Shown here: positions 430-28,300 of the stretch, piece after piece
Layout: the number at the start of each line of letters is the position of its first letter
Numbering within the stretch: the stretch's first letter is position 1
IMG/VR virus record: IMGVR_UViG_3300035698_017129
Direction: 5' to 3' (one strand)
DNA length: 64,000 nt
DNA from: an uncultured virus (IMG/VR IMGVR_UViG_3300035698_017129)
Lineage: Duplodnaviria; Heunggongvirae; Uroviricota; Caudoviricetes
Position numbers and translations under genes: made by a program
The notes under the pieces: model-generated
What the model was told of the DNA's origin: nothing
Seen by the model: the letters and a program-made list of their open reading frames with translations, nothing else
The model's database searches: none

Positions 430-1203
430 ATGGAGACACTGACAAAAGAAGACCCGCGACTACCAGTGGTAGCGCAGGCAATCGACTCCGTCCTGCAGAC
501 GCAGATCGAGATCACCAACACCCACCGACTCCAAGACGACTTGGGGATGGACAGCCTGGATTACGTGGAGATCATCATGGCGATCGAGGAGGCCTACGAC
601 ATCGACATCGACGAGCCGATCAGCGAGCAATTCGCTTCGCTGGTTACGGCGCAGGACATCCTGAACGACCTCAACAAGCGCCTGGGACCTGCAGAACCCA
701 TCGACGGTATCCTGCACCTCACCGATGACCAGTTCATCGAACGCTACAAACCGGAGAGGAACCGGTACGGTGACCTGTTCGTGCAGCGCGAGTGGAAAGA
801 GGACTCAGGCCTTCTTGGGGCCGCCATCGACGCGCACCAATGCTGGACGGCGATGGAGGACGACAACGGACGATACTGCATCAGTTGGGGTAACGCTGTG
901 GTCAACCGCCTCTACAACATCTTCACCGAGAAGCCGATCGAGGACCCGGAGTGGTACGTCTTCGTTCAAGACCCTGACGAAAGCCTCCACCTGACCGTCA
1001 CCGTTGATTGGGACACAGGCAATGAGGTCGTATCCGAGAAGGACCTACCCCGGGAGATCGAGCTGCGTCTGATGGACGTGGACGGCTCCTTTGAGGTGGT
1101 CACTGAGGAGAACTGGCTCGAAGTGATCGACTACCTGTCGGACGCCTACGGCTGGGCCATCAACTCCTGCACCTACGAGATCAACCCCAACCCAGAACTG
1201 TGA
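430..1203 (+). CDS. acyl carrier protein domain fused to uncharacterised acidic phage domain(s)
   Basis: First ~85 aa contain LQDDLGMDSLDYVEIIMAIEEAYDIDI, the ACP phosphopantetheine (DSL) signature; ~170 extra C-terminal aa. Confidence 0.8.
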   Translation: METLTKEDPRLPVVAQAIDSVLQTQIEITNTHRLQDDLGMDSLDYVEIIMAIEEAYDIDIDEPISEQFASLVTAQDILNDLNKRLGPAEPIDGILHLTDDQFIERYKPERNRYGDLFVQREWKEDSGLLGAAIDAHQCWTAMEDDNGRYCISWGNAVVNRLYNIFTEKPIEDPEWYVFVQDPDESLHLTVTVDWDTGNEVVSEKDLPREIELRLMDVDGSFEVVTEENWLEVIDYLSDAYGWAINSCTYEINPNPEL

Positions 1204-2480: not shown

Positions 2481-5400
2481 ATGACTGCGGCTCCAACCAC
2501 AGGCCCCGAGGCGATCCTCGCGGCCCTCCAATCGATGGACATTGACAAGCTCGAGGAGGAGCAGAGGGCCGTGATCAAATCCGGCAAGAAGACTAAGCGT
2601 GGCAGGGCAGTCCGCCTGCTCAACGCTGTGCAAGGTCTGCGGACCAATGAACTCAAGCCTGAGCAGCTCATGCTGTCGTCAGTCCCGGTGATCCCGCCGA
2701 AGTTCAGACCGTTCTCTGTGACAGGCGACACGTTCCTTCCCGGGGACGCCAACGAGGTTTACCGCGATGTGCTCGAATACAGAAGGCTCTACGATGCCAC
2801 GGAGAAGGCGCTGGGGCGCGAGGGAGCGTCTGAGGCCTATCTCGACCTCGTGAAGGCTACAAAGGCCGCGTACGGCTACGGAGAGAGTCCTAACCCTAAG
2901 ACTAAGGCCAGGCACGTGAAGGGATTCTTCAAGATGGTGACCGGTACGAATCCCAAGACGAGTTTCTATCAGTCAAGGATGCTCGCCAAGCCGGTGGACA
3001 CCGTTGGTCGTGGCGTCATCTCCCCGACCCCGAGATGGGTATGGATGAAGTGGGGATCCCCGAGGACATGGCCTGGAAGAGCTTCGGCAACCACGTGCAA
3101 CGTCGCCTGGTGCGATCCGGAATGCCGGCCCCTGCAGCACTCAAGCACATCACAGACCGGTCACCCATGGCACGTAAGGCGCTACTCGAAGAGCTACCGA
3201 ACCGCCCCGTGGTCATCACTCGCTCTCCTGCCTGGCACAAGACCAACGTGATCGGACAGACCGCACGCCTTGTCCCCGGTGATGCGATCCGGGTGAACAC
3301 CTTCATTACTGACGGTATGAACGCTGACTTCGACGGCGATCTCGTTCATAACCAAGTAGTTACAGCGATTCCGCGCTCACTAATTCAGGACCTACCGTTA
3401 TATTTAGTTGACCGCTTTCAGATGCTGGACAACTCCGTCGCTATGCAGAACAAACTTCAGATTCCCTACATCGATCCTACCTCTCACGAGGTTGCTGTGA
3501 TCGACCTCGAGGACTTCCCCCACGGTGAACTCAGTTTCGAGAAGCAGGGTACGAACAGCTACATCAAGTTTTTCGAGGCGCTAACGGGCACTAAGGTGAT
3601 CGCGTATGACGAGTCAACGCGGTCCATGGTATGGGCAGACGTGGCTGGGTGGAGCGAGCATACAGCCCCTCCAATCGAGGTGGTCACCCTCTCCAATCGT
3701 CGGCAGACCTTTACGGATGACGATCCTCGGGCCGTCTACGGGATGGATCCAGCGACCGGGGAAATGGGTAGGTGGACACCTACTGATGCGTTAGCGAAGA
3801 AGATCGCTGTCCCGTGCGGACGCAACCTGCGTGAGTTGGTTTCCTCTTTGGAGCCCGTCACTGAGGTCGATACCTCGGCGGAGACCCGGCTAGATCTAGA
3901 CTTTTCTGCGGGATGGTTCATGGGAGCGATGTGTGGGGACGGCTGGTGGGACAAGAAAGACAACAGCTACTGCGACAAGCGCCAGGACATGTATGGCTCC
4001 CGCAACCTCCACCTCGCCGACCTACAGGAAGACAACTCCACGCGCCTGCGGCAGTTCATCGAGGCCCATCTCGACCCTGGTGGGACGCTCTACTACCACC
4101 GGCAGGAGCAGAATAAAATAGAGGGCGACGACCGATACGGCGACTCGGTGAAGCACAGCTACAACTTCGCGGGCAGTGAGCATGTCGCGACCTTCCTGCA
4201 GACCCACCTGGGCGGGGAGCGGGATGAGAACACCGCCGGCTCGGGTAATAAACGTGTCCCAGGATTCCTGTTTCGCGCTCCCGAGGAGTTCCGACGCGGC
4301 TTCCTGACCGGTATGGTAGACACAGATGGTAGCATCTCGGTCCAACCTGACAAAGAGGCGGGAGGCGGCAACATGTTTAGCGTGGCGTCGACCTCGCTCC
4401 GTCTGATCCGTGAGCTTCAGGCGCTGTGTATGACGCTGGATGTGCGCGCAACCGTTACCTGGTCTAAGGAGACCAGCGGCGGCAACGAGTGTTGGTTGCT
4501 GGTCATGTCTACGTGGGACTGCAAGCGGCTGAACCTATTCGATCGATTGGCGACATCCTACAAACGCAACAACTTCGCTCACGCGGAGGTAGTCAAGGAG
4601 CACACAGCTGTAGTGTTCAACAAAGCCGTCGTCCCTCGCGCTGTGTTCGACATCGTGCAAACTGACTTAGTCAATCCCAAGGTCACATCAGCGGATCGTG
4701 CCGCCACCGGGCCGGACTTGGAATGGCGCAAGCACCAGCAGAACGTGGCGGTTCAGTGGAGCAAGGCGAAGCATGAGGGTATCATCTCCCGGCCTTCGGC
4801 TCGGAAGGTGCTCGATCACCTTGGAGATTTGTATAACCGAGCACTCAAGTCCAGGGACGCTGCACTTGTCTTGCTGCGCTCTGGCCATGTGGAGCTGACG
4901 CCTACCAGCGCGCAGATCTTGCGCGACGGCATCTACGCGACCGCCGCACCGTTCTCCGCGGACAGGGATAAAACGTCCCCAGCCTACAAGTTGGCATCGA
5001 TCGTCAAGACCGCCGCCCACCTCGGTGGTGTCTTGGGCGCTCGACGCCTGAAGAACCTCCTGACACGGTTAGAATCCCTGCCCGCCTATCGTGGCGCCCT
5101 GGACTCCGAAATCCTGAAAGGGTGGCGCTGCGACATCCTAAACCAAGATCACATCACCTGGGCCACCGTCGAGGACATACAATACACCGGCATCCGTGAG
5201 ACCGGATATGATCTCACAGTCCCGGGCTACGAGACATTCATGGCTGCCGACGGCGTCATCTTGTCGAACACCATGTCAGTCCACGTGCCAGCCGGCGACG
5301 CTGCTGTGAAGGATGTCCGCGAGAAAATGATGGCGAGCAAGATGCTCTGGTCGATCAAGGATCGCACGCAGACGAATGCGAATCCCAAACATGAGCAATT

Positions 5401-5530
5401 AATAGGACTGAGCATGGGCCAGAACTCAGGAGGCAAGAAGCGGCAGTTCGCAACAAACGAGGACGCCATGGCCGCCATCGATAGCGGCGAGATCGACTTG
5501 AACGACGATGTAGAAATCACAACCCCCTAA
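2481..5530 (+). CDS. phage multisubunit RNA polymerase beta'-like subunit, catalytic middle fragment; intein-containing; apparent -1 frameshift near 3022-3025
   Basis: ORF 2481 gives VPVIPPKFRP, DANEVYR and LAKPVDTVGRGVI. ORF 3035 continues with VGIPEDMA, ITRSPAWHK, NADFDGD and, after the intein, TMSVHVP. These are colinear RpoC conserved regions. One extra C in the C-run restores GRGVISPDPEMGMD. Confidence 0.9.
3341..5269 (+). mobile_element. intein (643 aa) with LAGLIDADG homing endonuclease, inserted immediately after NADFDGD
   Basis: Removal yields NADFDGD|TMSVHVP (RpoC consensus NADFDGDQMAVHVP). C-terminal GYDLTVPGYETFMAADGVILSN followed by Thr+1. Two LAGLIDADG motifs: WFMGAMCGDG and FLTGMVDTDG. 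Confidence 0.9.
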
Positions 5531-5606
5531 AAAAATGAATCGACGAAACTTAATCGCAACAGGAGCAGGAGCAGCCCTGTCCACAGTGTTACCGAGCGAC
5601 GCAATC

Positions 5607-6989
5607 TTGAATCCTTTGCGAAGTGATACCCCACCTCTCCGTGTGAACCCAGATCCAGGTGATACCCCCCGCCGAAATGTGAACCCTGAAACTCGAGATA
5701 CCCCTTTATAAGGCGTGAACCATCACCGTAACGATACCCCCAGAAGGGATGTGAACCCAAAGGCACGCGATACCCCTAAATCAAGAGTGAACCCAGGTCT
5801 CAATGATACCCCCGATGACAGAGTGAACCCAGCTTATAGTGATACTCCAGCCTGTTGTGTGAACCCTGGTGAACAAGATACCCCACCTGGCAGTGTGAAC
5901 CCAGATCTTCGTGATACCCCTGTTAGACGTGTGAGCCCAGATCCTCGTGATACCCCGAGGAGGCAAGCGAACCCCAGCTTCCGTGATACCCCACTGTAGC
6001 GCGTGAACCCGCGTAATCGTGATACCCCTGAATGAAGCGTGAACCCGAAACACAGCGATACCCCACTGTGGTGCGTGAACCCCCGAGGGCAAGATACCCC
6101 CTGTAACAGTGTGAACCCGAAGTCGCGAGACGCCCCAACTAAGTGCGTGAGCCCGTGGTTCCGTGATACCCCAGACTGCAGAGTGAACCCGAGTGCCTGA
6201 GATACCCCCGCTCAAAGTGTGAGCCCAGAATTGGGTGATACCCCAAATCGCAGAGCGAACCCCCGAAGGCAAGATACCCCCCCGTTACAGCGTGAACCCT
6301 CCATCAAGTGATACCCGAGTCTTCAGCGTGAACCCAAGTTCCAGCGATACCCCCCGTTACAGCGTGAACCCGAAATCACGTGATACCCCAGTCTTCAGCG
6401 TGAACCCAAGTTCCAGCGATACCCCCCGTTACAGCGTGAACCCAAGTTGCCGCGATACCCCGACTTAATGCGTGAACCCATGCCCGCGTGATACCCCGAC
6501 GAAGGAAAGTGAGCCCTTGCCGACGTGATACCCCCCGCGCATACGTGAACCCTGGCCGCTAAGATCCCCCATTCCAACGCGTGAACCCTGAAGATTGTGA
6601 TACCCCGGCAAAAAGTGTGAACCCGTGATGCTGAGATACCCTTCCGTGGCGCGTGAACCCTTACCCTGGTGATACCCCTTTTCACAGTGTGAGCCCTTGC
6701 CGACGTGATACCCCGCAGTGGAATGCGAGTCCCTATGATGGCGATGCCCCAAAAACAATTACGAACCCCCAACATAGTGGCACCCCAATACACAAGCGTG
6801 AACCCGAAACACAGCGATACCCCACTGTGGTGCGTGAACCCCCGAAGCCAAGATACCCCCTGTAACAGTGTGAACCCAAGATCCCGTGATACCCCGAGAC
6901 GCGGAGTGAACCCGATCTAGCCGAGATACCCCAAACCAATGTGTGAACCCGAGGAAACAAGATATCCCACACGCCATGCGTGTAACCCC
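5607..6989 (+). repeat. TIGR-like tandem dual-spacer guide-RNA array, 38 units of 36 nt (GTGAACCC-N10-GATACCCC-N10)
   Basis: GTGAACCC-like repeats at 5607, 5643, 5679 ... 6906, 6943 (36-nt period, four 37-nt units), alternating with GATACCCC. The intervening segments vary. Internal stop codons argue against coding. The array abuts a Nop/IS110-like gene. Confidence 0.9.
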
Positions 6990-7000
6990 AATTAAATTGA

Positions 7001-8188
7001 ATGAGTGAAGAATTTTACCCACAAGACAACCTCGCTGACAAGCTTTACGGCTTTACCGAAGAGCAGCTGGAAGCCTCGCGCCTCCTTTCCAAGGACCTGC
7101 TCAAGGCATCCGGCACCATGGGCCTGAACCAGGCTCGCTTCCTGATCGCCACATTCTACCTGCACCAGAAGGAGCGCATCGCTAAGAAGGCGCAGATCAA
7201 GGAGCAGAAGAAGCGCGGCGAACCCTACGATCTCCTGGAGCACTTCCGAGCCGGTGAGGCCGACATGGAAATCCAGGCAGGCAAAGCCCTTTTGAAGTTC
7301 TGTAAGAATTCGCAGACAGGGTCCTGGGCGATAAGCAACCTGGGAGTCGGCGGCATCATTACTGCAGGCCTCCTGGCAGAGATGAACATGGCGGAGTCGG
7401 TGACCCCGTCGCACTTCATCTCATACGCCGGGTTGAACCCGCAACAGGAGTGGAAAAAGGGAGAGGTGCGCCCCTACAATGTGGCCCTCAAAACCCTGTG
7501 CGCCTTCAAGCTGGGCGAGTGCCTGGTCAAGGTGCAGAACAGCGACAACGAGAGCAACTTCTACGGACGCCTGTTCAAGCAATACAAGGAGAAGGAGCTG
7601 GAGAAGAATGACGACGGCGGCAACATCGACACGGCCCGACGCGACGCCTCCGTGCCTACAGTGACTAGCGACGGCAGACGCCAGGTTGGCAGGTATAGTA
7701 AAACCACGGACGCTTGGCAGTGGGTGAACGGTTGCCTGCCAGCCGGAGCATGCGCGGAGCTGGCGGACGTGAAGAGTCAGATGCCTGAGGAACTCCTCGA
7801 GGCGAAATCGGAGGCGCGAGCCAAGTGGGTAGAGACCGCCAAGAAGGCTCTGTTCGATCAACTCCGCAGAGCCCCGGAGACCGGTCAGCCAATGCTGCCA
7901 CCATCCCAGGTGCACGGCCGTGCTCGCCGTAAGGTTGTGAAACTCTTTCTCCAGCACTTCTGGGAAGAGCGTTTCGTCGAGCTTTACAACAAGCAGCCGC
8001 CTGAGCCCTATGTGTTCGCGCACCAGGACCACTTCCACAAGATCGACCGACCGAACCCTTCGCATCCCGACCCCAACAAGCCTGAGCTGCCGAATCCCAC
8101 GATCCCCTACAGCCGGACCGAGGAAGGCAAGAAGGCATTGGCGAAGAAGAAGAAGGCAGCAGCTAAAAAGCGGGAAGGCCGGAGCTGA
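7001..8188 (+). CDS. Tas-like (TasA-type) Nop/IS110-C-terminal-domain RNA-binding protein, no recognisable nuclease domain
   Basis: Coiled-coil ARFLIATFYLHQKERIA, then LGVGGIITAGLLAEM...HFISYAGLNP and FYGRLF...HGRARRKVVKLFLQHFW, resembling the IS110 Transposase_20/Nop fold. Lacks the N-terminal DEDD RuvC domain and the catalytic SG after GLxP. Starts about 11 nt after the array. Confidence 0.8.
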   Translation: MSEEFYPQDNLADKLYGFTEEQLEASRLLSKDLLKASGTMGLNQARFLIATFYLHQKERIAKKAQIKEQKKRGEPYDLLEHFRAGEADMEIQAGKALLKFCKNSQTGSWAISNLGVGGIITAGLLAEMNMAESVTPSHFISYAGLNPQQEWKKGEVRPYNVALKTLCAFKLGECLVKVQNSDNESNFYGRLFKQYKEKELEKNDDGGNIDTARRDASVPTVTSDGRRQVGRYSKTTDAWQWVNGCLPAGACAELADVKSQMPEELLEAKSEARAKWVETAKKALFDQLRRAPETGQPMLPPSQVHGRARRKVVKLFLQHFWEERFVELYNKQPPEPYVFAHQDHFHKIDRPNPSHPDPNKPELPNPTIPYSRTEEGKKALAKKKKAAAKKREGRS

Positions 8189-8346
8189 TGGCGGATGAGG
8201 ACCTCTACCGCATAGGCTTCGAGATCGTCCCCAAGGATGAAGACGTCCAGAAGCTGGACGGGACTATTGGATACGAGGAGGAGGACGGCGAGGTCATCAT
8301 ACACGACAGCCTCAGGAACCCGCCCGAGCAAGAGGAATCCACATAA
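8188..8346 (+). CDS. small acidic protein (52 aa) translationally coupled to the Tas-like gene
   Basis: TGATG overlap; MADEDLYRIGFEIVPKDEDVQKLDGTIGYEEEDGEVIIHDSLRNPPEQEEST; below the ORF-track cutoff. Confidence 0.6.
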   Translation: MADEDLYRIGFEIVPKDEDVQKLDGTIGYEEEDGEVIIHDSLRNPPEQEEST

Positions 8347-8360
8347 TCTACTTGAGTCAC

Positions 8361-8390
8361 ACCTCCCAGCATGGTTGCATGCTGGGAGGT
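8361..8390 (+). other. 13-bp perfect stem-loop after the tas-like operon (terminator or processing/stability hairpin)
   Basis: ACCTCCCAGCATG-GTTG-CATGCTGGGAGGT; no U-tract follows. Confidence 0.55.
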
Positions 8391-8402
8391 CACTCACCCA
8401 CT

Positions 8403-8684
8403 ATGAAATTTGCATCAAAGAAACTTATTGAAACCGCAGCGGAAGTCCTCAACGCCCACGTGGCGGCAGACGACGAACAGGGCAACGCTCTGTGCGGCGA
8501 ACACCGCAACGACATCCTGGGGCTCATCAACGAGATCCTGTTTGTAGCAGCGGAGGAAGGGCGCCTCGTGGTAGCCATCGAGAGCGACGGCAGGCTCCTG
8601 GGCTTCGTGCCTCGCATGAACGTCAGCATTCCGGAGATCCCAGTGGAGACTACAGAACCTGTAACCCCGGGACCTGATGAGTGA
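8403..8684 (+). CDS. hypothetical protein
   Basis: ATG at 8403 after the hairpin; overlaps the next gene. Confidence 0.55.
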   Translation: MKFASKKLIETAAEVLNAHVAADDEQGNALCGEHRNDILGLINEILFVAAEEGRLVVAIESDGRLLGFVPRMNVSIPEIPVETTEPVTPGPDE

Positions 8685-8871: not shown

Positions 8872-9064
8872 CCCTCCGAAGGATGCGGTGAAGTCTTGTA
8901 AGGCGTTGCACGAAACAACGGTAGCCTTGATTGCTACGCTGACCTGGGTGACCTGCTACCACGGGTGGTTCTCCCTCGTCTCAACTGGAGCAGCCGCTGT
9001 CTCGACTGTGTTGGGTTACTCTGTGCTATGCTGGGGGTATGACCGAATCAACGGCAAAACGTAG
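8822..9064 (+). CDS. small putative membrane protein
   Basis: Two hydrophobic segments; start uncertain. Confidence 0.4.
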   Translation: MVSNTSLARGVKLPDPDPPKDAVKSCKALHETTVALIATLTWVTCYHGWFSLVSTGAAAVSTVLGYSVLCWGYDRINGKT

Positions 9065-9326
9065 AGCGAGGATCCGTGACGGCTTCTGCTGCGCCATGTG
9101 CACTTCCAATTTTGGAGGTCACTGGCGTTTGCACGGTCACCACATTCGACCGAAGGCATTGTATCCTGAGCGCGCTGCTGATCCTGACAACATCATCACG
9201 CTCTGCATGCTCTGCCATTTGTGGATTGTTCACGCTGGGTCCATCGGAGACGGTGGCCGCAAGCGTGGGAACTGGAGGAAATTTGTTTTGATGTTCGTGA
9301 ACATCGTTCGTTACACCCAAAAATGA
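9039..9326 (+). CDS. stand-alone HNH endonuclease
   Basis: RDGFCCAMC...LHGHHIRP...DPDNIITLCMLCH: CxxC, HH, N and CxxCH pattern of HNH nucleases. Confidence 0.85.
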   Translation: MTESTAKRRARIRDGFCCAMCTSNFGGHWRLHGHHIRPKALYPERAADPDNIITLCMLCHLWIVHAGSIGDGGRKRGNWRKFVLMFVNIVRYTQK

Positions 9327-9545
9327 CACTTAACCGCATGACCGCAACGCACACCACGAGAGAAACCAGACGGGAAAACGAGACGCCACAAAGAGGACGT
9401 TACCCCGCTTCGAGAGAGGTTGAGGGTGACACTGACTGATGAGGACTAGAATGTGGCGCAAACCACATCCCTTATTCCGGCCCCTAACACGGGTCGGAAT
9501 TTTTTACCTCCCCCGCCCCGCCTTTATCGGCTATCATTAGTTCGT

Positions 9546-11423
9546 ATGCATTCCACGACCAAATCTGCAGCAACCATGGGATCAGCCCTTGGTGTCGGCG
9601 CAGGAGGCGGAGCCATAGCTGGCGCCCTCGCTGCCCTTTTCGACGAAGATCCCAACTTACGGAAACTTTTGCAGAACTCCCTCGTGGGTGCTGCAGGAGG
9701 CGCCGCTATTGGTGGCGGTGTAAAGGCGTTGGGCGGAGACTCAGGAACAGGTGGCGCTGCCGGAGATACTGTCCCAACGCCGACCGCCCCAGGCAACAAG
9801 ATGAACCTCAGCCTGGCCGCGTTGTCAGGCGCTATACCCGGCATTGGTCCGGCGGCGCACGCCCTGGCATCGAATGGGTTGAATGCAGGAGGAGCGGCCC
9901 AGGCAGCTGGAAGCGGCCTAGCATCGATGACGGCCGGTATGCTCACAGCTGGCCGTGCTGCTATGGAGGCTAAGGCGACCGGTGTGACCATGCCGGGGAA
10001 GAAGATGGCGTTGGGCTACGGTGCCAGCGCTGTCGCAGCCCTACTCGCCGCTGCAGCCGGTAACCATTTACGGACACAGGAGAAGACAGCATCCCTGCGC
10101 CAGGCCCTCCTGGGCGGCCAGGTCACGAAGTCTGCAGCCAAGCTGGTGCGTAAGCCTCAGATGGTTGAAGAGGCGCACGACCATTGCCCTCATTGCGATC
10201 ACGAGTTCCAGGAGAAAGGCTACCCACGCCCGCAGTTCCCGGACGGGACTGACGACGCAACCCGGGAAGCTGCGCTACAGAGCGGTGACTACGACGAGCA
10301 CTGCAGTTCATGCGGAGGAATCGTTGACCAGGAGGAGATGTCCGACGAGGAGATCGACAAGCACTGTGACACGGGCTTGGTCTCGCAGGACAAGGAGTTC
10401 TCCGATCAGATGCGCGACCAATACAGGTCACGACGGACAAAGCAGCAGGAACGACGTGAAGCGAGGGAGAAGTCGGCAGCCGCCGGCCCCTCCAAGAAGA
10501 CCATCGAAGCTGCCCTGACAGAGGCGGGTATCCCGACGGATGTGATGATCTTCTACAAGGGTGACCGCGCTACCGCATATTTCGGTGACTGGCACGAGAC
10601 GGATATATGGAAGGCGACCAACAAGGTGGGCCGGAAGTTGTTCAAGAACTGGGAGGAGCCAGACGACAGTGAGATTGGCTGCCCGGAATGGGCGCAGTCA
10701 ACGCCGAGTGTCAGTTCCAACACCAAGGGCGAAGACGTGATCCACGAGTGCCGCCACAACATTTGCGAATGCGGTAAGGTCACCAACTACTGCTCCGACG
10801 CTACCGATGGGAAGCACGAACCGAAGAAGACCACGCATAATAAGTGCAAGCGCTGCGTTAATACTGCTCCGGGCGATAAGGCACCTTTGGCGAGTATCTA
10901 CGGCGGGATCACGAAGTCAGCCAACATCCGCCAGGCCCGGAACGCCACAGCCACCGATCCCACGCCGGCCCAGGCTCACGAGGGCAACTATGCCAAGGGT
11001 GAGTTCAACTTCCGCGGGCTACCAATTAAGATCGAGAACCCCAAGGGCACTGAACGCCGGGGCTACAACAAGCTGGGCGCTGTCACCTGGAAGCGGATCA
11101 TGCATGCGGACTACGGCTACATCAAAGGCACCAAGGCTGTCGACGGTGATGCCGTTGACTTCTTCGTGGGGCCGGATCACGACAGCGACCTGGTCGTAGC
11201 GATCGATCAATACCGCGGTAAGACATTCGACGAGACGAAGTTCGTAGGAGGTGTGACGACCCAGGAGCAGGGCGAGAAGCTCTACCTGCGTCACTACCCC
11301 AAGAGCTGGAAGCTAGGCCCTGTCAGCACTACGACAGTTCCGCAGCTAAAAAAATGGCTCAAGGATGGTAGGACGATGAAGCCGTTCAAGGGTCAGATAC
11401 TGAAGGCGGTTGGGGTGATCTGA
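9546..11423 (+). CDS. multidomain putative virion protein with C-terminal inorganic-pyrophosphatase-like (InPase) domain
   Basis: C-terminal PTPAQAHEGNYAKG...IENPKGTERRG...DYGYIKGTKAVDGDAVDFFVG...FDETK; Gly-rich hydrophobic N-terminus; Cys clusters; segments bounded by KSA/KTA. Confidence 0.75.
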   Translation: MHSTTKSAATMGSALGVGAGGGAIAGALAALFDEDPNLRKLLQNSLVGAAGGAAIGGGVKALGGDSGTGGAAGDTVPTPTAPGNKMNLSLAALSGAIPGIGPAAHALASNGLNAGGAAQAAGSGLASMTAGMLTAGRAAMEAKATGVTMPGKKMALGYGASAVAALLAAAAGNHLRTQEKTASLRQALLGGQVTKSAAKLVRKPQMVEEAHDHCPHCDHEFQEKGYPRPQFPDGTDDATREAALQSGDYDEHCSSCGGIVDQEEMSDEEIDKHCDTGLVSQDKEFSDQMRDQYRSRRTKQQERREAREKSAAAGPSKKTIEAALTEAGIPTDVMIFYKGDRATAYFGDWHETDIWKATNKVGRKLFKNWEEPDDSEIGCPEWAQSTPSVSSNTKGEDVIHECRHNICECGKVTNYCSDATDGKHEPKKTTHNKCKRCVNTAPGDKAPLASIYGGITKSANIRQARNATATDPTPAQAHEGNYAKGEFNFRGLPIKIENPKGTERRGYNKLGAVTWKRIMHADYGYIKGTKAVDGDAVDFFVGPDHDSDLVVAIDQYRGKTFDETKFVGGVTTQEQGEKLYLRHYPKSWKLGPVSTTTVPQLKKWLKDGRTMKPFKGQILKAVGVI

Positions 11424-14080: not shown

Positions 14081-14491
14081 ATGGATACATCAACCACATC
14101 ACCAAAAGGAGCTCTGACTCCAGAACAATCAGCACTCAACCTCTTCGAGGTTGTCACGGGAACTAAGGCGTTCAACGCGTTCTACCCTGCGTCGAACTCG
14201 GTTCGTCTAGCTGCGCGGGGCGAGTCCCTGGGCAGTATCGCCTTGGAGCAGAGGCTGCGCGTCCACCTCGCTGGCGCTGTCATGGGCGTGGGTAACATGG
14301 AGCGTAAGCTCATCCGCCGCATCTGCCAGATCCGCCGAGAGGTGGAATACTTGAAGGACCTTGACCCTGCTGTAAAGCAGGTCGTGAAGGAGGCAGTAGC
14401 GTGGCTCCGGGCAGTGGGCCGAGAGGTCGACTTTCAGGCGGACAACCCAGCCAACTGGGTGACCCAACGTGGAGGGGAGCCCCGCTGGTGA
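14081..14491 (+). CDS. hypothetical protein (cassette gene)
   Basis: Starts at the motif ATG; first 18 aa identical to the gene at 14858. Confidence 0.7.
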   Translation: MDTSTTSPKGALTPEQSALNLFEVVTGTKAFNAFYPASNSVRLAARGESLGSIALEQRLRVHLAGAVMGVGNMERKLIRRICQIRREVEYLKDLDPAVKQVVKEAVAWLRAVGREVDFQADNPANWVTQRGGEPRW

Positions 14492-14784
14492 TGCACGTGG
14501 AAACACTCCAGATCAGTAGTGTATCCATCGACGAGGCCATGGTAATCCTCCGCCTCATCACGATGGATACGTCGCCCCGCTCGAACCCCGCCATGCTCAC
14601 TGGAGAACCCGGCGAGCCCGCGCGGCATCGGCAGCTCGACGAGCTGAATAACATATTCGCCACCGTCACCGACACCGGTGAGAGCATCCGTATCACGGTG
14701 CGCAGCGAGTTCTCAATGAACAAGGCCATGCTCGTCGTAGCGCAGGCGCTCCAAGTGCTGCCGGGAATATTCTCCAAGGTTTAA
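14491..14784 (+). CDS. hypothetical protein
   Basis: TGATG coupling; MHVETLQISSV... Confidence 0.6.
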   Translation: MHVETLQISSVSIDEAMVILRLITMDTSPRSNPAMLTGEPGEPARHRQLDELNNIFATVTDTGESIRITVRSEFSMNKAMLVVAQALQVLPGIFSKV

Positions 14785-14791
14785 CCTGGAT

Positions 14792-14857
14792 GCAAGCAGC
14801 GGTCCGCCTGGGCCGCTGCTTGCAATTCTTTACCTCGTTGTGCCATAAAGAATTGCT
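14792..14857 (+). promoter_or_regulatory. hairpin plus cassette promoter, copy 5
   Basis: GCAAGCAGCGG...CCGCTGCTTGC overlapping the motif. Confidence 0.75.
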
Positions 14858-15175
14858 ATGGATACATCAACCACATCACCAAAAGGAGCTCTGACTCCAG
14901 AACAATCAGCAGAACTCAATGCTCCCCCAGTGGAGCACTGCCGCGCGAAGATCGCGGAATGCTCGCAGGAGCTCATCGACCTGTCCAGAGATGGACGGTC
15001 GAACACCGCCGAGGCCCGCCAGGCCCTCCATCAGATGTCCTACAACCTCGGCATCCTGTCTGTCCTGACAGGGCGGGGCCGCGATATCTATGACCTCTCA
15101 AAGCCTGAGGTGGGATACGGCATTCTGAACGGGTGGGCAACCCTCAAGAAGGATGCCGAGGAAGGTCGCATTTAA
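14858..15175 (+). CDS. hypothetical protein (cassette gene)
   Basis: Starts at the motif ATG. Confidence 0.7.
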   Translation: MDTSTTSPKGALTPEQSAELNAPPVEHCRAKIAECSQELIDLSRDGRSNTAEARQALHQMSYNLGILSVLTGRGRDIYDLSKPEVGYGILNGWATLKKDAEEGRI

Positions 15176-15182
15176 TCAACCC

Positions 15183-15249
15183 GCACCCTGGTCTCCTTCG
15201 GGAGGCCAGGTGTGCAATTCTTTACCTCCTTGCGTCATAAAGAATTGCT
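15183..15249 (+). promoter_or_regulatory. hairpin plus cassette promoter, copy 6
   Basis: CCTGGTCTCC-TTCG-GGAGGCCAGG (UUCG tetraloop) then the motif. Confidence 0.75.
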
Positions 15250-15657
15250 ATGAAACCTATAACCATTGCAAGCACACTCGCCCTCATCGTAATCTCCGTG
15301 ATGCTGCTCAGCAGCTGCGGAAGTAATGAGGCCATTGAAACCCCAACCCCTGAGCCAGCAGCCGAAGAGGCGAGCTGGTTCGACCGTCTGCTTGAGCGCG
15401 AACAGGCCCCTGTGGTCATCGTCGTCGCGCCGACCGAGGAGTGCGAGCCGTCATGGTTCTCACGTCTCACCAGTCGCGGCGAGGAGATCGAAGAAGCTGT
15501 CGTAATTGAAGAAGAGGCTGCGGAGTCTTGGATCAAGCGCATCTTCACGAAGGACGCACCAGAACCAGAACCTGAGCCCGTAGTCGTTGTTGACGACAGC
15601 GGTGACGGTTGGCTCGCCACGACCTGGTCCCGGGTAACCGGCCCAGGCGAAGAGTAA
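15250..15657 (+). CDS. putative lipoprotein, acidic with repeated SW(F/I)xR(L/I) motifs
   Basis: Signal peptide ending LLSSC (lipobox); EASWFDRL, EPSWFSRL, ESWIKRI. Confidence 0.7.
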   Translation: MKPITIASTLALIVISVMLLSSCGSNEAIETPTPEPAAEEASWFDRLLEREQAPVVIVVAPTEECEPSWFSRLTSRGEEIEEAVVIEEEAAESWIKRIFTKDAPEPEPEPVVVVDDSGDGWLATTWSRVTGPGEE

Positions 15658-15667
15658 TATTCACCCG

Positions 15668-15734
15668 CGCCACCGGCCTCCGCACGGGGGTCGGTGGCGT
15701 AATTTTTTACCTCCCTGCGTCATAAAGAATTGCT
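15668..15734 (+). promoter_or_regulatory. hairpin plus cassette promoter, copy 7 (left arm degenerate)
   Basis: CGCCACCGGCC...GGTCGGTGGCG then TAATTTTTTACCTCCCTGCGTCATAAAGAATTGCT-ATG. Confidence 0.7.
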
Positions 15735-15781
15735 ATGAGCTTAACTAAACGAGAGAATCACCGGGGTCCTAACGGGCTCCG

Positions 15782-23308: not shown

Positions 23309-23845
23309 ATGCCCGCGTCAACCACACCTTTGAAGAACCGTCTCGAGTCCCTGCGCAACGTGCGAAAGGAACTGGAATCCATTAAGAAGGAGGCCTTCAT
23401 GGCTTCTCCACCAATGCCTCAGGGCGGTGTACCACCAATGGACCCATCAATGGGCGGTGGAATGCCTCCAGGAATGGACCCCGCGATGATGGGCGGAGCA
23501 CCCCCAATGGACCCATCAATGGGCGGTGGAATGCCTCCAGGAATGGGCCCCGCGATGATGGGCGGAGCACCCCCAATGGACCCCGCTATGGCTGGTGGTA
23601 TGCCCCCAGTCGACCCAGCCACCGGAATGCCGATGGACCCAGCGATGGCCGGCGGAGCACCCCCAGAAGGAGGCGCCGGAGCACTTACGCCCGAGATGAT
23701 CGAGGAACTCCTGGGAGTCATCGAAGAGTTGGCTGCCCAAGGCGAACAACAGGAGCAGCTTAACGAGCAGCTCAAGGGAGCCATCGAGGAAATCGTTACC
23801 AAGGTCGAGGAGATGGAGCAAGCAATGGCAGCCCCCGTCATGTAA
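23309..23845 (+). CDS. Pro/Met/Gly-repeat protein with acidic coiled-coil C-terminus
   Basis: PPMDP(S/A)MGG repeats; KKEAF motif; sigma70-like promoter TTGCTT-N17-CACAAT 6 nt before the ATG. Confidence 0.75.
   Translation: MPASTTPLKNRLESLRNVRKELESIKKEAFMASPPMPQGGVPPMDPSMGGGMPPGMDPAMMGGAPPMDPSMGGGMPPGMGPAMMGGAPPMDPAMAGGMPPVDPATGMPMDPAMAGGAPPEGGAGALTPEMIEELLGVIEELAAQGEQQEQLNEQLKGAIEEIVTKVEEMEQAMAAPVM
23435..23582 (+). repeat. 69-nt coding tandem duplication
   Basis: CCAATGGACCCATCAATGGGCGGTGGAATGCCTCCAGGAATGG... occurs twice in tandem. Confidence 0.75.
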
Positions 23846-24069
23846 TGGTCCGCGTTCGACAGCAGAACGGACTGACCGTCGACGTCGACGGTCTGGAGGC
23901 CGTTGAGATAATCGGTGATGACGGCAGACTGGGGATGGTAATCGTCCAGGACCGTAAAGGCACGATCCACCTGTCGACCCCGGGTGAAGCGATTTTTAAC
24001 GGATACTGCAAGTCGCACGGGCTACAGCCGGCGAAAGTCCACAAGCACGAATCTTTACCCGTCCACTGA
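23845..24069 (+). CDS. hypothetical protein
   Basis: TAATG coupling. Confidence 0.6.
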   Translation: MVRVRQQNGLTVDVDGLEAVEIIGDDGRLGMVIVQDRKGTIHLSTPGEAIFNGYCKSHGLQPAKVHKHESLPVH

Positions 24070-27882: not shown

Positions 27883-28223
27883 GGCGCAGGAGGAGAGGCG
27901 AGCTTCCAATCCTCCTCGATATTGCAGAAGTCTTTCAAGGACTGCCACACTCTCTCCGCCTCAATGAGGCCACCATCTGTAAGATACAGACGCTTCGTGC
28001 GGGTGTCCCGACTGGGAAAGAGTTCTTCGGCGAACCCCCGCGTTATCATGTCGGTCTTCGTCAAATTGAGCGCAGCCGGCTTAATACCGGTCACGGCGGT
28101 CAAGTCTTTGTAAATCCAGCCCTCCCCGCGCTTGTTAGCCAGCAGGAGTAAAAGCAGCTGAGGACTCTTGATCAGGCCCGACCTGTAGACCCGCTGGATG
28201 ATATCAATGTGTTCTTGTTTCAT
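27879..28223 (-). CDS. MarR-like winged-helix transcription regulator
   Basis: YKDLTAVTGIKPAAL...RGF...SRDTRTKRLYLTDGG matches the MarR DxR wing. Confidence 0.75.
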   Translation of the reverse strand: MKQEHIDIIQRVYRSGLIKSPQLLLLLLANKRGEGWIYKDLTAVTGIKPAALNLTKTDMITRGFAEELFPSRDTRTKRLYLTDGGLIEAERVWQSLKDFCNIEEDWKLASPPAP

Positions 28224-28300
28224 TGTATCCGGTTACTACGCATCGCATTCCATCGAGGTCAAGGCTTGTCGCGGCGGGATTGGTGATCTATTATGCCTCA

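What the first reader, a model, noticed from the sequence alone, without database searches (positions are those of the whole stretch)
5607..8188. Phage-encoded RNA-guided system: 36-nt dual-spacer array plus a Nop/IS110-like protein (TIGR-Tas-like, nuclease-less)
Seen: 38 tandem units with a 36-nt period, each GTGAACCC-N10-GATACCCC-N10. The second-to-last spacer base is usually G, so the truly variable part is about 8-9 nt. Two different short repeats alternate with two short spacers, unlike CRISPR, and no cas genes are in the window. The array ends about 11 nt before a 395-aa gene with IS110-C-terminal/Nop-like motifs (GVGGIITAGLLAE, ISYAGLNP, HGRARRKVVKLFL) that has no DEDD RuvC domain, no HNH and no catalytic SG. 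Known: TIGR-Tas systems use 36-nt tigRNAs with two ~9-nt spacers bound by Nop-domain Tas proteins related to IS110 and box C/D snoRNP proteins; TasA lacks a nuclease. Inference: the array is processed into ~36-nt guides that program this protein to bind DNA (or RNA), for example for repression or inter-phage competition. This copy has an apparent ~100-aa insertion inside the domain and a Pro/Lys-rich tail, so it may be a distinct variant.
Basis: partly seen in the sequence, partly recalled or inferred. Interest (0 to 1): 0.96.

Follow-up and report, generated by a model that had tools for sequence, protein, structure and literature searches.

The report
Phage TIGR guide array with TasA
A salt-lake phage carries a long array of 38 two-part guide RNAs followed by a nuclease-free guide-binding protein; this is a genuine but ordinary example of the TIGR-Tas systems first described in 2025.

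Summary
Window 5607-6988 (+) is a 38-unit array. Edge repeat GTGAACCC and loop repeat GATACCCC alternate with short spacers; 33 units are 36 nt and 5 are 37 nt. A fixed-spacing pattern matches 35 times against 0.03 expected. Twelve nt downstream starts a 395-aa gene (7001-8188).

The protein's AlphaFold model (pLDDT 89) matches solved TasH and TasR best (VIA Z 16.6 and 15.8; IS110-type recombinase 10.8). A family profile hits TaTasR at E 1.3e-22. There is no nuclease domain. Y337 and H344 align with the SpTasH tigRNA-processing dyad Y289/H296. Relatives carry 36-nt arrays in 115 of 160 loci, against 0 of 160 shuffles.

A base pair between successive edge repeats is kept in 38 of 38 units, with 4 compensatory G-C changes (permutation P 1.6e-4). 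This marks the + strand RNA unit.

The kind is published: Faure 2025, and Xu 2026 showing TasA acts as an RNA-guided repressor. The "insertion" is a subfamily trait that is already catalogued. This scan has met TIGR-TasA loci before on other DNA.

No target, RNA evidence or host was found. Verdict: new member of a known kind, notable only for array length and a rare CCC box C.

The parts
5531..5606 (+). Leader: a 76-nt gap between the stop of the upstream RNA-polymerase beta'-like gene (3035-5530) and the first edge repeat
   Evidence: No sigma-70-like promoter was found on the + strand here. The ORF 5535-5711, which runs into the array, is taken as spurious.
5607..6988 (+). Dual-repeat TIGR array of 38 units, each: edge repeat (R-H-)GTGAACCC, spacer A, loop repeat (R-H-)GATACCCC, spacer B
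   Evidence: 35 pattern matches against 0.03 expected. The layout matches the SpTIGR array of Salicola phage CGphi29: 10-nt repeats plus 8-nt spacers.
6725..6797 (+). Degenerate units 32-33 (edges GCGAGTCC and ACGAACCC; loops GATGCCCC and GGCACCCC)
   Evidence: The inter-edge pair is still kept as G-C in both units.
6980..6988 (+). Terminal, degenerate edge repeat (GTGTAACCC), 12 nt before the tasA start codon. No Shine-Dalgarno-like motif lies between them.
   Evidence: The closest relative L082 has the same arrangement.
7001..8188 (+). tasA: 395-aa nuclease-less Nop-domain protein (TIGR-associated protein A)
7124..7306 (+). Coiled-coil helical hairpin (residues 42-102), the predicted dimer interface
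   Evidence: Model helices H42-72 and H77-102. Homodimer prediction: ipSAE 0.63 against best control 0.00, with interface residues 27-96.
7613..7891 (+). Subfamily-specific extension (about residues 205-297): a beta-hairpin at 219-229 plus helices 237-288, lying where published work places 'insertion 2'
   Evidence: 222 residues of the model span 40-355 superpose on TasH. The 'insertion 2' label is taken from Xu 2026 section 6; its placement here is by inference.
8009..8032 (+). Codons of Y337 to H344 (PEPY-VFAHQD-H), the putative metal-independent tigRNA-processing dyad
   Evidence: SpTasH reads RPLY289-VQEKLG-H296. H344 is invariant in the 9-sequence subfamily alignment.
8066..8185 (+). Pro-rich linker and Lys-rich C-terminal helix (residues 356-395)
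   Evidence: It varies among relatives and is absent from the closest one, P0001.
8188..8346 (+). 52-aa acidic ORF whose ATG overlaps the tasA stop codon (ATGA). Function unknown; membership of the system is unproven.
   Evidence: It has no Pfam or PHROG hit. L082 has an unrelated ORF with an acidic N-terminus at the same place.
8353..8396 (+). Strong hairpin closing the unit, a possible terminator or processing site
   Evidence: Minimum free energy -32.5 kcal/mol, z -4.37, and 0 of 200 shuffles fold as well. The consensus scan did not call it a terminator because it lacks a T-run.

Best explanation
This is a dual-repeat TIGR-TasA system in a phage-like contig. The proposed mechanism has four steps.

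1. The + strand from about 5531 to about 8396 is transcribed as one unit: leader, 38-unit array, tasA, a small ORF and a hairpin.
2. TasA dimerises through its coiled coil. It binds the box D (HG) and box C (CCC) motifs of the edge and loop repeats.
3. Using Y337 and H344, TasA cuts inside each edge repeat. This releases 36-37-nt tigRNAs of the form: 3' half of an edge, spacer A, loop, spacer B, 5' half of the next edge.
4. [quoted passage not shown] Because it has no nuclease, it blocks transcription or replication rather than cutting.

Shown here: the array, the fold, the homology, the conserved dyad, the co-occurrence with arrays in relatives, and the RNA-level covariation. Inferred from characterised relatives: transcription, processing, DNA binding and repression. 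Unknown: the targets.
For: Array: 35 pattern matches against 0.03 expected. 38 units were parsed.

Protein homology: PHROG 4285 at E 2e-26. 1691 cluster representatives at E<=1e-3. A profile of 23 sequences hits TaTasR 9mty at E 1.3e-22, SpTasH at 2.7e-10 and IS621 at 8.2e-4.

Protein structure: AF2 model with pLDDT 89.1 and pTM 0.84. Foldseek best hit TasH 9w04_B at E 1.7e-6; TasR 9mty_B at 7.3e-4. VIA-align: TasH Z 16.6 (rmsd 3.2, 222 aligned), TasR Z 15.8 (rmsd 2.3, 193 aligned), and the next unrelated rows at Z<=9.5.

No nuclease: Pfam gives only a sub-threshold Transposase_20 hit (19.4 bits against a cutoff of 21.3). Only about 40 residues precede the coiled coil.

Processing dyad: window PEPY337-VFAHQD-H344 against SpTasH RPLY289-VQEKLG-H296.

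Dimer: ipSAE 0.63 against best control 0.00. That mark was reached by 20 of 30 solved homo-pairs and 1 of 23 single chains. Runs agree in at least 88% of contacts, and partner pLDDT is at least 80.

Co-occurrence: a chain of 4 or more 36-nt-spaced hexamers occurs in 67 of 80 viral and 48 of 80 metagenome relatives, and in 0 of 160 shuffles. The closest relative (L082, 59% identity) has about 10 units with the same CCC box C directly upstream of its tas gene.

RNA covariation: edge(n) position 5 pairs with edge(n+1) position 2 in 38 of 38 units (32 A-U, 4 G-C, 2 G-U, 0 mismatches). Permutation P = 1.6e-4. Other registers give 33-36 pairs with 0-1 G-C. The G-U pairs are valid only on the + strand. 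The 4-nt gap of the edge (UGAA) has complementary ends and the loop gap (AUAC) does not, which is the published criterion for edge versus loop (Xu 2026 Methods passages).

Function in relatives: TasA RNPs carry 36-nt RNAs (Faure 2025, section 5 read). MbTasA binds target DNA and represses a reporter and cysG (Xu 2026, section 12 read).
Against: There is no direct evidence of expression. The two public runs that hold the stretch are DNA contigs.

No target was found. No tandem site with 1 mismatch or fewer exists in the proper arrangements in the other 62.6 kb of the window. There is none in 1.16 Mb of related loci. Two IMG/VR scans for guide 13 gave 27 and 20 hits, a number in the range I estimated for chance from an assumed database size (an estimate, not a tool result), and 18 of the 27 belong to one family of small contigs.

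Y337 is not invariant in the family; W or F replace it in several homologues, and TaTasR has W. Self-processing is therefore less certain than binding.

No promoter-like site was found upstream on the + strand, though a phage with its own RNA polymerase need not use sigma-70 promoters.

Units 32-33 are degenerate.
Confidence: 0.9

Rival explanations
1. It is a decaying or orphaned TIGR locus. The sequence is recognisably TIGR-TasA but no longer functions, and the array is drifting.
For: Units 32-33 and both terminal edges are degenerate. Five units are 37 nt. No target was found.
Against: The ORF is intact and keeps all 20 columns that are invariant in the 23-sequence alignment A1. The Y/H positions are kept. 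38 of 38 inter-edge pairs are kept with 4 compensatory changes, including in the degenerate units, which drift would erode. 35 of 38 units match within 2 mismatches. Degenerate terminal edge repeats are normal for TIGR arrays (Faure 2025, section 4 read).
Confidence: 0.05
2. The array guides regulation of the phage's own genes (a self-directed timing switch) rather than of host or rival DNA.
For: TasA proteins act as reversible repressors (Xu 2026, section 12 read). The authors list regulation of the viral lifecycle as one possible role (Xu 2026, section 13 read). Only 64 kb of the genome is visible.
Against: No tandem match with 1 mismatch or fewer exists for any of the 38 guides in either proper arrangement in the rest of the window. 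The few hits with 1-3 mismatches were as common in control arrangements.
Confidence: 0.1
3. The repeat region is protein-coding (a 12-residue tandem-repeat protein), or it is a CRISPR-like array.
For: The 36-nt period is a multiple of 3. ORFs of up to 163 aa lie on the - strand. An ORF with an RR-containing N-terminus (5535-5711) runs into the array. Translated - strand ORFs of L082's array match the window's array.
Against: There are 6-34 stops in every frame, and five single-base length changes break the frame. Conservation lies in two 8-10-nt blocks while the 8 bases between them are free. That is the reverse of what a coding repeat shows, and the blocks are too short and too dual for CRISPR repeats. 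No cas-like gene was found among the ORFs scanned.
Confidence: 0.01
4. The protein is a truncated IS110-family transposase remnant, and the array is unrelated satellite DNA.
For: Pfam's only hit is Transposase_20, the IS110 C-terminal domain. PHROG 4285 is labelled 'transposase'. IS621 and ISCro4 are structural neighbours.
Against: Solved Tas proteins score well above IS110 recombinases (Z 16.6 and 15.8 against 10.8; profile E 1.3e-22 against 8.2e-4). The protein is full length against 300-400-aa relatives that also lack the DEDD domain. Those relatives carry arrays.
Confidence: 0.01

Closest known systems
Dual-repeat TIGR-TasA systems: FpTasA of Flavonifractor plautii (Faure et al. 2025, Science, PMC12045711) and the TasA repressor MbTasA (Xu et al. 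2026, bioRxiv 10.64898/2026.09.09.750476)
   Same: A nuclease-less Nop-domain protein with a coiled coil sits next to an array of two alternating short repeats with a 36-nt period. Box C and box D flank each spacer. The C-terminal Y/H loop typical of dual-repeat Tas proteins is present.
   Different: About 38 units, against 'most often 5 to 15' (Faure 2025, section 4 read). Box C is CCC rather than CCA. The array abuts the start codon, 12 nt upstream with no SD. There is a longer segment at the 'insertion 2' position and a Lys-rich tail. No direct sequence comparison with FpTasA or MbTasA was possible because their sequences were not fetched.
SpTIGR-TasH of Salicola phage CGphi29 (NC_020844; PDB 9W03, 9W04, 21KL; NAR 2026, PMC13421893)
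   Same: It is the best structural match (VIA Z 16.6). The array layout is the same: 10-nt repeats plus 8-nt variable spacers. The edge repeats are alike (Sp GCGAGCCA, window GTGAACCC), as are the loops (GACAACCA and GATACCCC). The Y-x6-H dyad has identical spacing. Both come from saline habitats by their records.
   Different: SpTasH has an N-terminal HNH nuclease and cuts DNA; the window protein has none. The Sp array lies downstream of the gene and ends in a terminator, whereas here it lies upstream. BLASTP identity is only 26% over 86 residues.
TaTasR (PDB 9MTY; Faure et al. 2025)
   Same: It is the best sequence-profile match (E 1.3e-22). VIA Z is 15.8 with rmsd 2.3 over 193 residues at 24% identity. 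The extra base pair within the edge repeat described for TasR is seen here by covariation.
   Different: TasR has an N-terminal RuvC nuclease, 9-nt repeats (UG..CCA) and 9-nt spacers.
IS110-family RNA-guided recombinases (IS621, ISCro4) and box C/D snoRNP Nop5/Nop56/58
   Same: They share the Nop-type RNA-binding domain: IS621 Foldseek E 1.2e-2 and ISCro4 Z 10.8. The relation of Tas proteins to box C/D proteins is taken from Faure 2025 (sections 8 and 10 read).
   Different: The window protein has no DEDD catalytic domain, no bridge RNA and no fibrillarin-binding domain. Nop5/56/58 did not appear among the 50 VIA rows shown, which does not exclude a relation.

Membership tests
TIGR-Tas, dual-repeat class, TasA type | Tas-type Nop domain fold, homologous to characterised Tas proteins | tested here: met
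   Model pLDDT 89.1. Foldseek: TasH E 1.7e-6 and TasR 7.3e-4. VIA: Z 16.6 and 15.8. Profile against PDB: TaTasR 1.3e-22 and SpTasH 2.7e-10.
TIGR-Tas, dual-repeat class, TasA type | Adjacent array of two distinct alternating 8-12-nt repeats separated by spacers of about 9 nt, with a 36-nt unit | tested here: met
   38 units, of which 33 are 36 nt and 5 are 37 nt. 35 pattern matches against 0.03 expected. The array ends 12 nt upstream of the gene on the same strand.
TIGR-Tas, dual-repeat class, TasA type | Box D and box C motifs shared by edge and loop repeats, and an edge repeat whose 4-nt gap has complementary ends | tested here: met
   Both repeats read R-H-G....CCC. The edge gap UGAA is complementary at its ends; the loop gap AUAC is not. 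The inter-edge pair is kept in 38 of 38 units with 4 G-C and 2 G-U, P 1.6e-4. The criterion comes from Xu 2026 Methods passages.
TIGR-Tas, dual-repeat class, TasA type | No nuclease domain (this separates TasA from TasH and TasR) | tested here: met
   Pfam finds no HNH, RuvC or DEDD domain. Residues 1-40 are short and of low confidence. The structural alignment to TasH starts at chain residue 66, that is, after its HNH domain.
TIGR-Tas, dual-repeat class, TasA type | C-terminal Tyr/His loop that processes pre-tigRNA (conserved in dual-repeat Tas proteins) | tested here: met
   Y337 and H344 have the same Y-x6-H spacing and flanks as SpTasH Y289/H296. H344 is invariant in 9 of 9 subfamily sequences. 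The Tyr position is Y, W or F across the family. Catalysis was not tested.
TIGR-Tas, dual-repeat class, TasA type | Dimer through the coiled-coil domain | tested here: met
   This is a prediction only: ipSAE 0.63 against best control 0.00, with the interface on residues 27-96. Solved Tas dimers exist, so the pass may reflect likeness to them.
TIGR-Tas, dual-repeat class, TasA type | Array transcribed and processed into 36-nt tigRNAs bound by the protein | not testable with these tools
   No RNA run holds the stretch. Small-RNA sequencing of the expressed locus is needed.
TIGR-Tas, dual-repeat class, TasA type | Tandem-spacer recognition of double-stranded DNA | not testable with these tools
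   No natural target was found. A binding assay is needed.
IS110-family transposase | N-terminal DEDD (RuvC-like) catalytic domain and a transposon context with a bridge RNA | tested here: not met
   Pfam reports no DEDD_Tnp_IS110 hit and only a sub-threshold Transposase_20 hit. The N-terminus is too short.
CRISPR-Cas | A single direct repeat of about 23-47 nt with spacers of similar size, plus cas genes | tested here: not met
   There are two different 8-10-nt repeats with 8-nt spacers. No cas-like hit appeared among 55 ORFs (PHROGs) or 36 ORFs (Pfam).
Box C/D snoRNP core protein (Nop5/Nop56/Nop58) | Fibrillarin-binding N-terminal domain, K-turn guide RNA and an L7Ae partner | tested here: inconclusive
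   No Nop5/56/58 chain is among the 50 rows VIA listed, or among the Foldseek rows with E<=1. No Pfam Nop hit was found. Absence from those lists does not exclude distant relatedness.

The most novel reading that the evidence does not exclude
Two readings go beyond what the papers I read state.

(a) Array and tasA form one transcript. TasA's own cleavage at the last, degenerate edge repeat, 12 nt before an AUG with no Shine-Dalgarno motif, sets the 5' end of the tasA message. Guide maturation and effector synthesis would then be coupled in a feedback loop. The closest relative, L082, has the same junction.

(b) The array grew without any adaptation machinery, by segmental duplication of 72-nt (two-unit) blocks and exchange of half-units, followed by change concentrated in single spacers. 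Three observations fit this. Units 13-14 and 34-35 share 3 of 4 spacers. Units 19-23 form a 72-nt tandem block. Units 26 and 31 share the edge variant and spacer A but have unrelated spacers B.
Probability: 0.2. Interest if true: 0.5.

Novelty: new member of a known kind. Interest (0 to 1): 0.25.

Why it matters
The locus adds a well-preserved, unusually long natural TIGR-TasA array to a family whose biology is still open. Its targets, host and role are all unknown.

Three features could be useful:
- It is longer than any array in the 160 relatives examined. Their longest chain of exactly repeated hexamers is 33 units; the same method gives 28 for this array, while full parsing gives 38.
- Its internal duplications and shared half-guides bear on the unanswered question of how TIGR arrays expand.
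- Its within-array compensatory pairs give a sequence-only way to fix the strand, the edge/loop phase and the tigRNA boundaries.

It also places TasA in a phage-like contig that encodes pieces of its own multisubunit RNA polymerase. The match 'TIGR-Tas' plus 'jumbo phage' returned 0 papers in the library searched. None of this changes what is known about how the system works.

Tried and rejected
Self-targets. All 38 guides were tested at 8+8, 9+9 and 10+10 nt, in both proper tandem arrangements and in control arrangements, against the window with the array masked. There were no hits with 1 mismatch or fewer in the proper arrangements, and the counts resembled those of the controls.

Targets in relatives. 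No exact 16-mer matched in 1.16 Mb of 161 fetched loci.

Targets in IMG/VR. Guide 13 (duplicated as unit 34) was scanned in both arrangements. The scans gave 27 and 20 exact hits. 18 of the 27 are one family of small AT-rich contigs, and the rest are unrelated to one another by their flanks. I judged this to be chance level from my own rough estimate of about 20 per 16-mer for an assumed 50 Gb, which is not a tool result. I ran no further guides, because 16 specified bases cannot be told from chance in collections of this size.

Host or whole genome. No genome is held for the window. A 50-nt stretch of tasA is not in IMG/VR. GenBank phages gave no match to the protein or to 20 kb of the window. 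No tRNA gene was found.

Expression. No RNA holder was listed. Two salt-lake metagenome DNA runs (two studies, possibly one campaign or the source sample) hold the stretch with identical sequence, and their contigs show no joints or array variants.

Split TasH idea. The HNH ORF at 9039-9326 shows no similarity to the SpTasH HNH domain. I saw no comparable ORF by eye in L082's flanks (not scanned against family libraries).

Synteny. Only tasA and the array are shared between L082 (+/- 6 kb) and the window.

Other checks. Rfam has no family matching 5300-8500. TRF at its thresholds reports only fragments of the array and none of the SpTIGR array, so it is a poor detector for this kind of array. 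A first guess at the TasH gene in CGphi29 was wrong and was corrected.

Published catalogue. Motifs of the window protein and of its closest relative are absent from the held copy of Faure Table S1. That copy is cut (9,182 ProteinInfo rows held), so absence proves nothing. One protein of the same subfamily is present.

Complex prediction. The result is reported under evidence because it passed. It is a prediction that may rest on likeness to solved Tas dimers.
Full report
WHAT IS THERE

Reading window 5300-8500 and parsing it shows an array on the + strand from 5607 to 6988. It has 39 edge-type repeats (consensus GTGAACCC) alternating with 38 loop-type repeats (GATACCCC), which makes 38 units. 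The first edge (TTGAATCC) and the last (GTGTAACC, with one inserted T) are degenerate.

Thirty-three units are exactly 36 nt. Five are 37 nt because one spacer has 11 rather than 10 bases. Units 32-33 are degenerate.

The pattern GTGAACCC-N10-GATACCCC with up to 2 mismatches matches 35 times. All matches are on the + strand inside the array, against 0.03 expected from 100 dinucleotide-preserving shuffles.

The base two positions before each repeat is G in 30 of 37 (edge) and 30 of 38 (loop) cases. The base just before each repeat is never G. The repeats are therefore effectively R-H-GTGAACCC and R-H-GATACCCC, with 8 freely variable bases between them.

Every one of the six frames has 6-34 stops across the array, so it is not coding. 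The array ends 12 nt before the ATG of a 395-aa ORF (7001-8188). The tasA stop codon overlaps the start of a 52-aa acidic ORF (8188-8346). A strong hairpin follows at 8353-8396 (z -4.37).

THE PROTEIN

Sequence evidence:
- Pfam gives only a sub-threshold hit to the IS110 C-terminal family, Transposase_20 (19.4 bits against a cutoff of 21.3).
- PHROG 4285, labelled 'transposase', matches at E 2e-26.
- The family is large. 1691 representatives of 50%-identity clusters match at E<=1e-3, and 305 match at E<=1e-30.
- The nearest relative is only 59% identical.
- A profile of 23 family members hits solved TaTasR (9MTY) at E 1.3e-22, SpTasH at 2.7e-10 and the IS621 recombinase at 8.2e-4.

Structure evidence:
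- The AlphaFold2 model built on that alignment is confident (pLDDT 89.1, pTM 0.84).
- In Foldseek the ten best PDB rows are all TasH or TasR chains (best E 1.7e-6), followed by IS621.
- VIA-align against 48,161 representative chains gives TasH Z 16.6 (rmsd 3.2, 222 residues), TasR Z 15.8 (rmsd 2.3, 193 residues, 24% identity) and ISCro4 Z 10.8. Below these are only generic helical hairpins at Z<=9.5.

Nuclease and dimer:
- Only about 40 low-confidence residues precede the coiled-coil hairpin (helices 42-72 and 77-102). There is no room for an HNH or RuvC domain, and none is detected.
- A homodimer prediction passes: ipSAE 0.63 against best control 0.00. That mark was reached by 20 of 30 solved homo-pairs and 1 of 23 single chains. 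Runs agree in at least 88% of contacts and pLDDT is at least 80. The interface lies on residues 27-96.
- Solved Tas dimers exist, so this shows likeness rather than proof.

THE PROCESSING DYAD

The NAR 2026 paper on SpTasH (PMC13421893, passages read) names Y289 and H296, in the flexible C-terminal region, as the catalytic residues for metal-independent pre-tigRNA cleavage. Xu et al. [quoted passage not shown]

I fetched Salicola phage CGphi29 and located tasH (14395-15324). Its sequence reads ...HFLADYW274...RPLY289-VQEKLG-H296. The window protein reads ...LQHFW321...PEPY337-VFAHQD-H344. The Y-x6-H spacing is the same and it follows the same helix.

H344 is invariant in the nine-sequence subfamily alignment. 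The Tyr position is Y, W or F across the wider family.

THE RNA

The SpTIGR array (L081, about 15360-15750) consists of 10-nt repeats AAGCGAGCCA and AAGACAACCA with 8-nt spacers. This is the same layout as the window. The Sp edge GCGAGCCA corresponds to the window's GTGAACCC, and the Sp loop GACAACCA to GATACCCC.

Faure et al. 2025 (section 8 read) describe box D and box C motifs shared by edge and loop repeats. They also describe an extra base pair inside the edge repeat, formed between the two different edge halves of a processed tigRNA. Xu et al.'s TIGRFinder assigns the edge phase by complementarity of the end bases of the 4-nt gap between box D and box C (Methods passages). In the window the edge gap is UGAA (complementary ends) and the loop gap is AUAC (not complementary).

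I tested the pair across units. Position 5 of edge n pairs with position 2 of edge n+1 as follows:
- A-U in 32 units
- G-C in 4 units (10, 18, 31, 32)
- G-U in 2 units
- a mismatch in none

All four edges with C at position 2 follow an edge with G at position 5 (permutation P = 1.6e-4). Other registers give 33-36 pairs and 0-1 G-C. G-U pairs make sense only on the + strand. This supports, from sequence alone, three points: the + strand RNA is under selection, GTGAACCC is the edge, and the functional unit runs from one edge to the next.

RELATIVES

Co-occurrence:
- Of 80 IMG/VR loci encoding relatives (29-37% identity), 67 contain a chain of at least four hexamers spaced 36 nt apart.
- Of 80 metagenome loci, 48 do. 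Many of these loci are short contigs.
- None of 160 shuffled loci reaches four. Six 9-kb non-array pieces of the window reach at most three.

Array form:
- Consensus units are mostly GAGCGAGCCA-N8-GAGAGAACCA-N8.
- An automated call on the 79 arrays with 6 or more units found box C to be CCA in both repeats in 20, CCG in both in 4, and CCC in 2 (L144, L151). It could not.
- The closest relative, L082, has about 10 units with CCC box C directly upstream of tasA, ending 14 nt before an ATG that also lacks an SD motif.
- More distant relatives with upstream arrays do have GGAGG-like motifs.

Context and length:
- Only tasA and the array are shared between L082's +/- 6 kb and the window, so the module sits in different backbones.
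- The longest exact-hexamer chain among the 160 relatives is 33 units. The same method gives 28 for this array, while full parsing gives 38.
- Faure et al. say arrays most often have 5 to 15 units (section 4 read).

THE 'DISTINCT VARIANT' IDEA

The segment at about residues 205-297 contains a beta-hairpin (219-229) and helices (237-288). It is present in 15 of the 22 homologues aligned and absent in 7. A protein with the same WVNGC...MLPPSQ segment is listed in Faure et al.'s Table S1. The Lys-rich tail is present in some close relatives and absent from the closest. These are subfamily traits, not a new architecture.

CONTEXT

The window looks like part of a large, very divergent phage genome:
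- 57 of 74 crude ORFs lie on one strand.
- There are pieces of a multisubunit RNA polymerase beta' (2481-3251 and 3035-5530, the latter carrying a LAGLIDADG/intein insert, and 28223-30157).
- There is an HNH endonuclease and a 656-aa protein with PHROG hits to virion proteins and an InPase domain.
- Most ORFs match nothing.
- There are no tRNA genes, no match in GenBank phages and no whole genome held.
- Two salt-lake metagenome DNA runs hold the stretch with identical sequence.

TARGETS

None were found.
- The 38 guides have no tandem site with 1 mismatch or fewer in the rest of the window in either proper arrangement, and the weaker hits match control arrangements in number.
- There is no exact 16-mer match in 1.16 Mb of related loci.
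- Two IMG/VR scans for guide 13 gave 27 and 20 hits, which I judge to be chance level (my estimate). Eighteen of these belong to one unrelated family of small contigs.
- With 16 specified bases, only a defined host or a complete phage genome can give a meaningful answer.

ARRAY HISTORY

Spacers are more alike than column-shuffled controls. For spacer A, 14 pairs have 2 or fewer mismatches of 8 against 5.5 expected, and 0 of 1000 shuffles reach that. For spacer B, the figures are 14 against 5.6, with 3 of 1000 shuffles reaching it.

Specific cases:
- Units 13-14 and 34-35 share 3 of 4 spacers.
- Units 19-23 form a 72-nt tandem block (TRF: 2.9 copies, 86% matches). Within it one spacer (A20 against A22) differs at 4 of 10 positions while its neighbours are identical.
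- Units 26 and 31 share the edge variant and spacer A but have unrelated spacers B.

This fits growth by segmental duplication and exchange of half-units. It is descriptive, and I found no statement for or against it in the sections read. Both papers say that the way arrays acquire spacers is unknown (Faure section 10; Xu section 13).

COMPARISON WITH WHAT IS KNOWN

The locus meets every sequence-level defining feature of dual-repeat TIGR-TasA that I could test. It fails those of IS110 transposases and CRISPR-Cas.

Its mechanism is inferred from relatives:
- 36-nt tigRNAs bound by TasA (Faure section 5).
- Tandem-spacer DNA recognition (Faure sections 6 and 8).
- Self-processing by the Y/H dyad in TasH (NAR 2026 passages).
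- Reversible RNA-guided transcriptional repression by TasA (Xu section 12).

Papers seen:
- Faure 2025: sections 4, 5, 6, 8, 10, 24 and the figure legends, plus searches in Table S1, which is cut in the held copy.
- Xu 2026: sections 5, 6, 10, 12, 13 and Methods passages. Its supplements are closed and TIGRSafari is not public.
- NAR 2026 (PMC13421893): passages only.
- Guan 2026 (10.64898/2026.08.11.744272): abstract and outline only.
- The yeast preprint (10.64898/2026.07.30.739390): passages only.
- Others: search listing only.

This scan has met TIGR-TasA loci several times on other DNA and judged them ordinary.

VERDICT

This is a new member of a known kind. Interest is low to moderate. 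It rests on the array's length, the rare CCC box C, the clean within-array covariation, the start-codon-abutting junction and the signs of duplication-driven growth.

Noticed in passing
window 2481-5530 (+): An RNA polymerase beta'-like gene is split over two overlapping ORFs in different frames (2481-3251 and 3035-5530). The two hit consecutive parts of PHROG 25354 and Pfam Rpb1 domains 1 and 2. The second ORF carries a LAGLIDADG domain and an intein-splicing domain, which suggests an intein inside the polymerase subunit. The frame change could be real or an assembly error.
   Followed up: partly
window 28223-30157 (+): A further RNA polymerase beta' piece (Pfam Rpb1 domain 5, E 9.6e-14; PHROG 25354, E 4e-45). 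It indicates a phage-encoded multisubunit RNA polymerase, as in jumbo phages.
   Followed up: no
window 5535-5711 (+): A 58-aa ORF starts 5 nt after the upstream gene's stop. Its N-terminus (MNRRNLIATGAGAAL...) looks like a twin-arginine signal, and it runs into the first three array units. It is probably spurious, but it covers the array leader.
   Followed up: partly
window 5781-6272 and 6395-6793 (-): ORFs of 163 and 132 aa lie on the strand opposite the array. Gene callers would likely annotate them as hypothetical proteins. The equivalent - strand ORFs of L082's array match them by tblastn at 29-49% identity. This is a repeat artefact that can seed false protein families.
   Followed up: partly
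window 8188-8346 (+) and L082 7030-7305: A small ORF with an acidic N-terminus starts at or next to the tasA stop codon in both the window and the closest relative (ATGA in the window, TAGATG in L082). The two ORFs show no detectable similarity to each other and have no family hits.
   Followed up: partly
window 9039-9326 and 9453-11423 (+): A free-standing 95-aa HNH endonuclease, unrelated to the TasH HNH domain. It is followed by a 656-aa protein with a C-terminal InPase domain (E 3.6e-38) and PHROG hits to virion, minor-head, DarB-like and endolysin families.
   Followed up: partly
window 430-1203 (+): A 257-aa ORF with a phosphopantetheine-attachment (acyl carrier protein) domain (Pfam E 1.1e-7; PHROG 5934, E 1e-13).
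   Followed up: no
window 23422-23609: A 69-nt tandem repeat (2.7 copies, 90% matches) lies where ORFs on both strands overlap (23419-24018 on the - strand). It was not examined.
   Followed up: no
L081 (Salicola phage CGphi29) 14305-15324 and 15360-15750: The tasH reading frame is open from 14305, upstream of the annotated start at 14395. The record annotates a 'hypothetical protein' (15290-15490) across the start of the TIGR array. TRF finds none of that array at a minimum score of 40.
   Followed up: partly
L162-L188 (IMG/VR): Eighteen small contigs (about 4-14 kb) of one family share an exact 16-mer equal to one tandem arrangement of guide 13. I judged this a chance match amplified by an abundant virus family.
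   Followed up: partly
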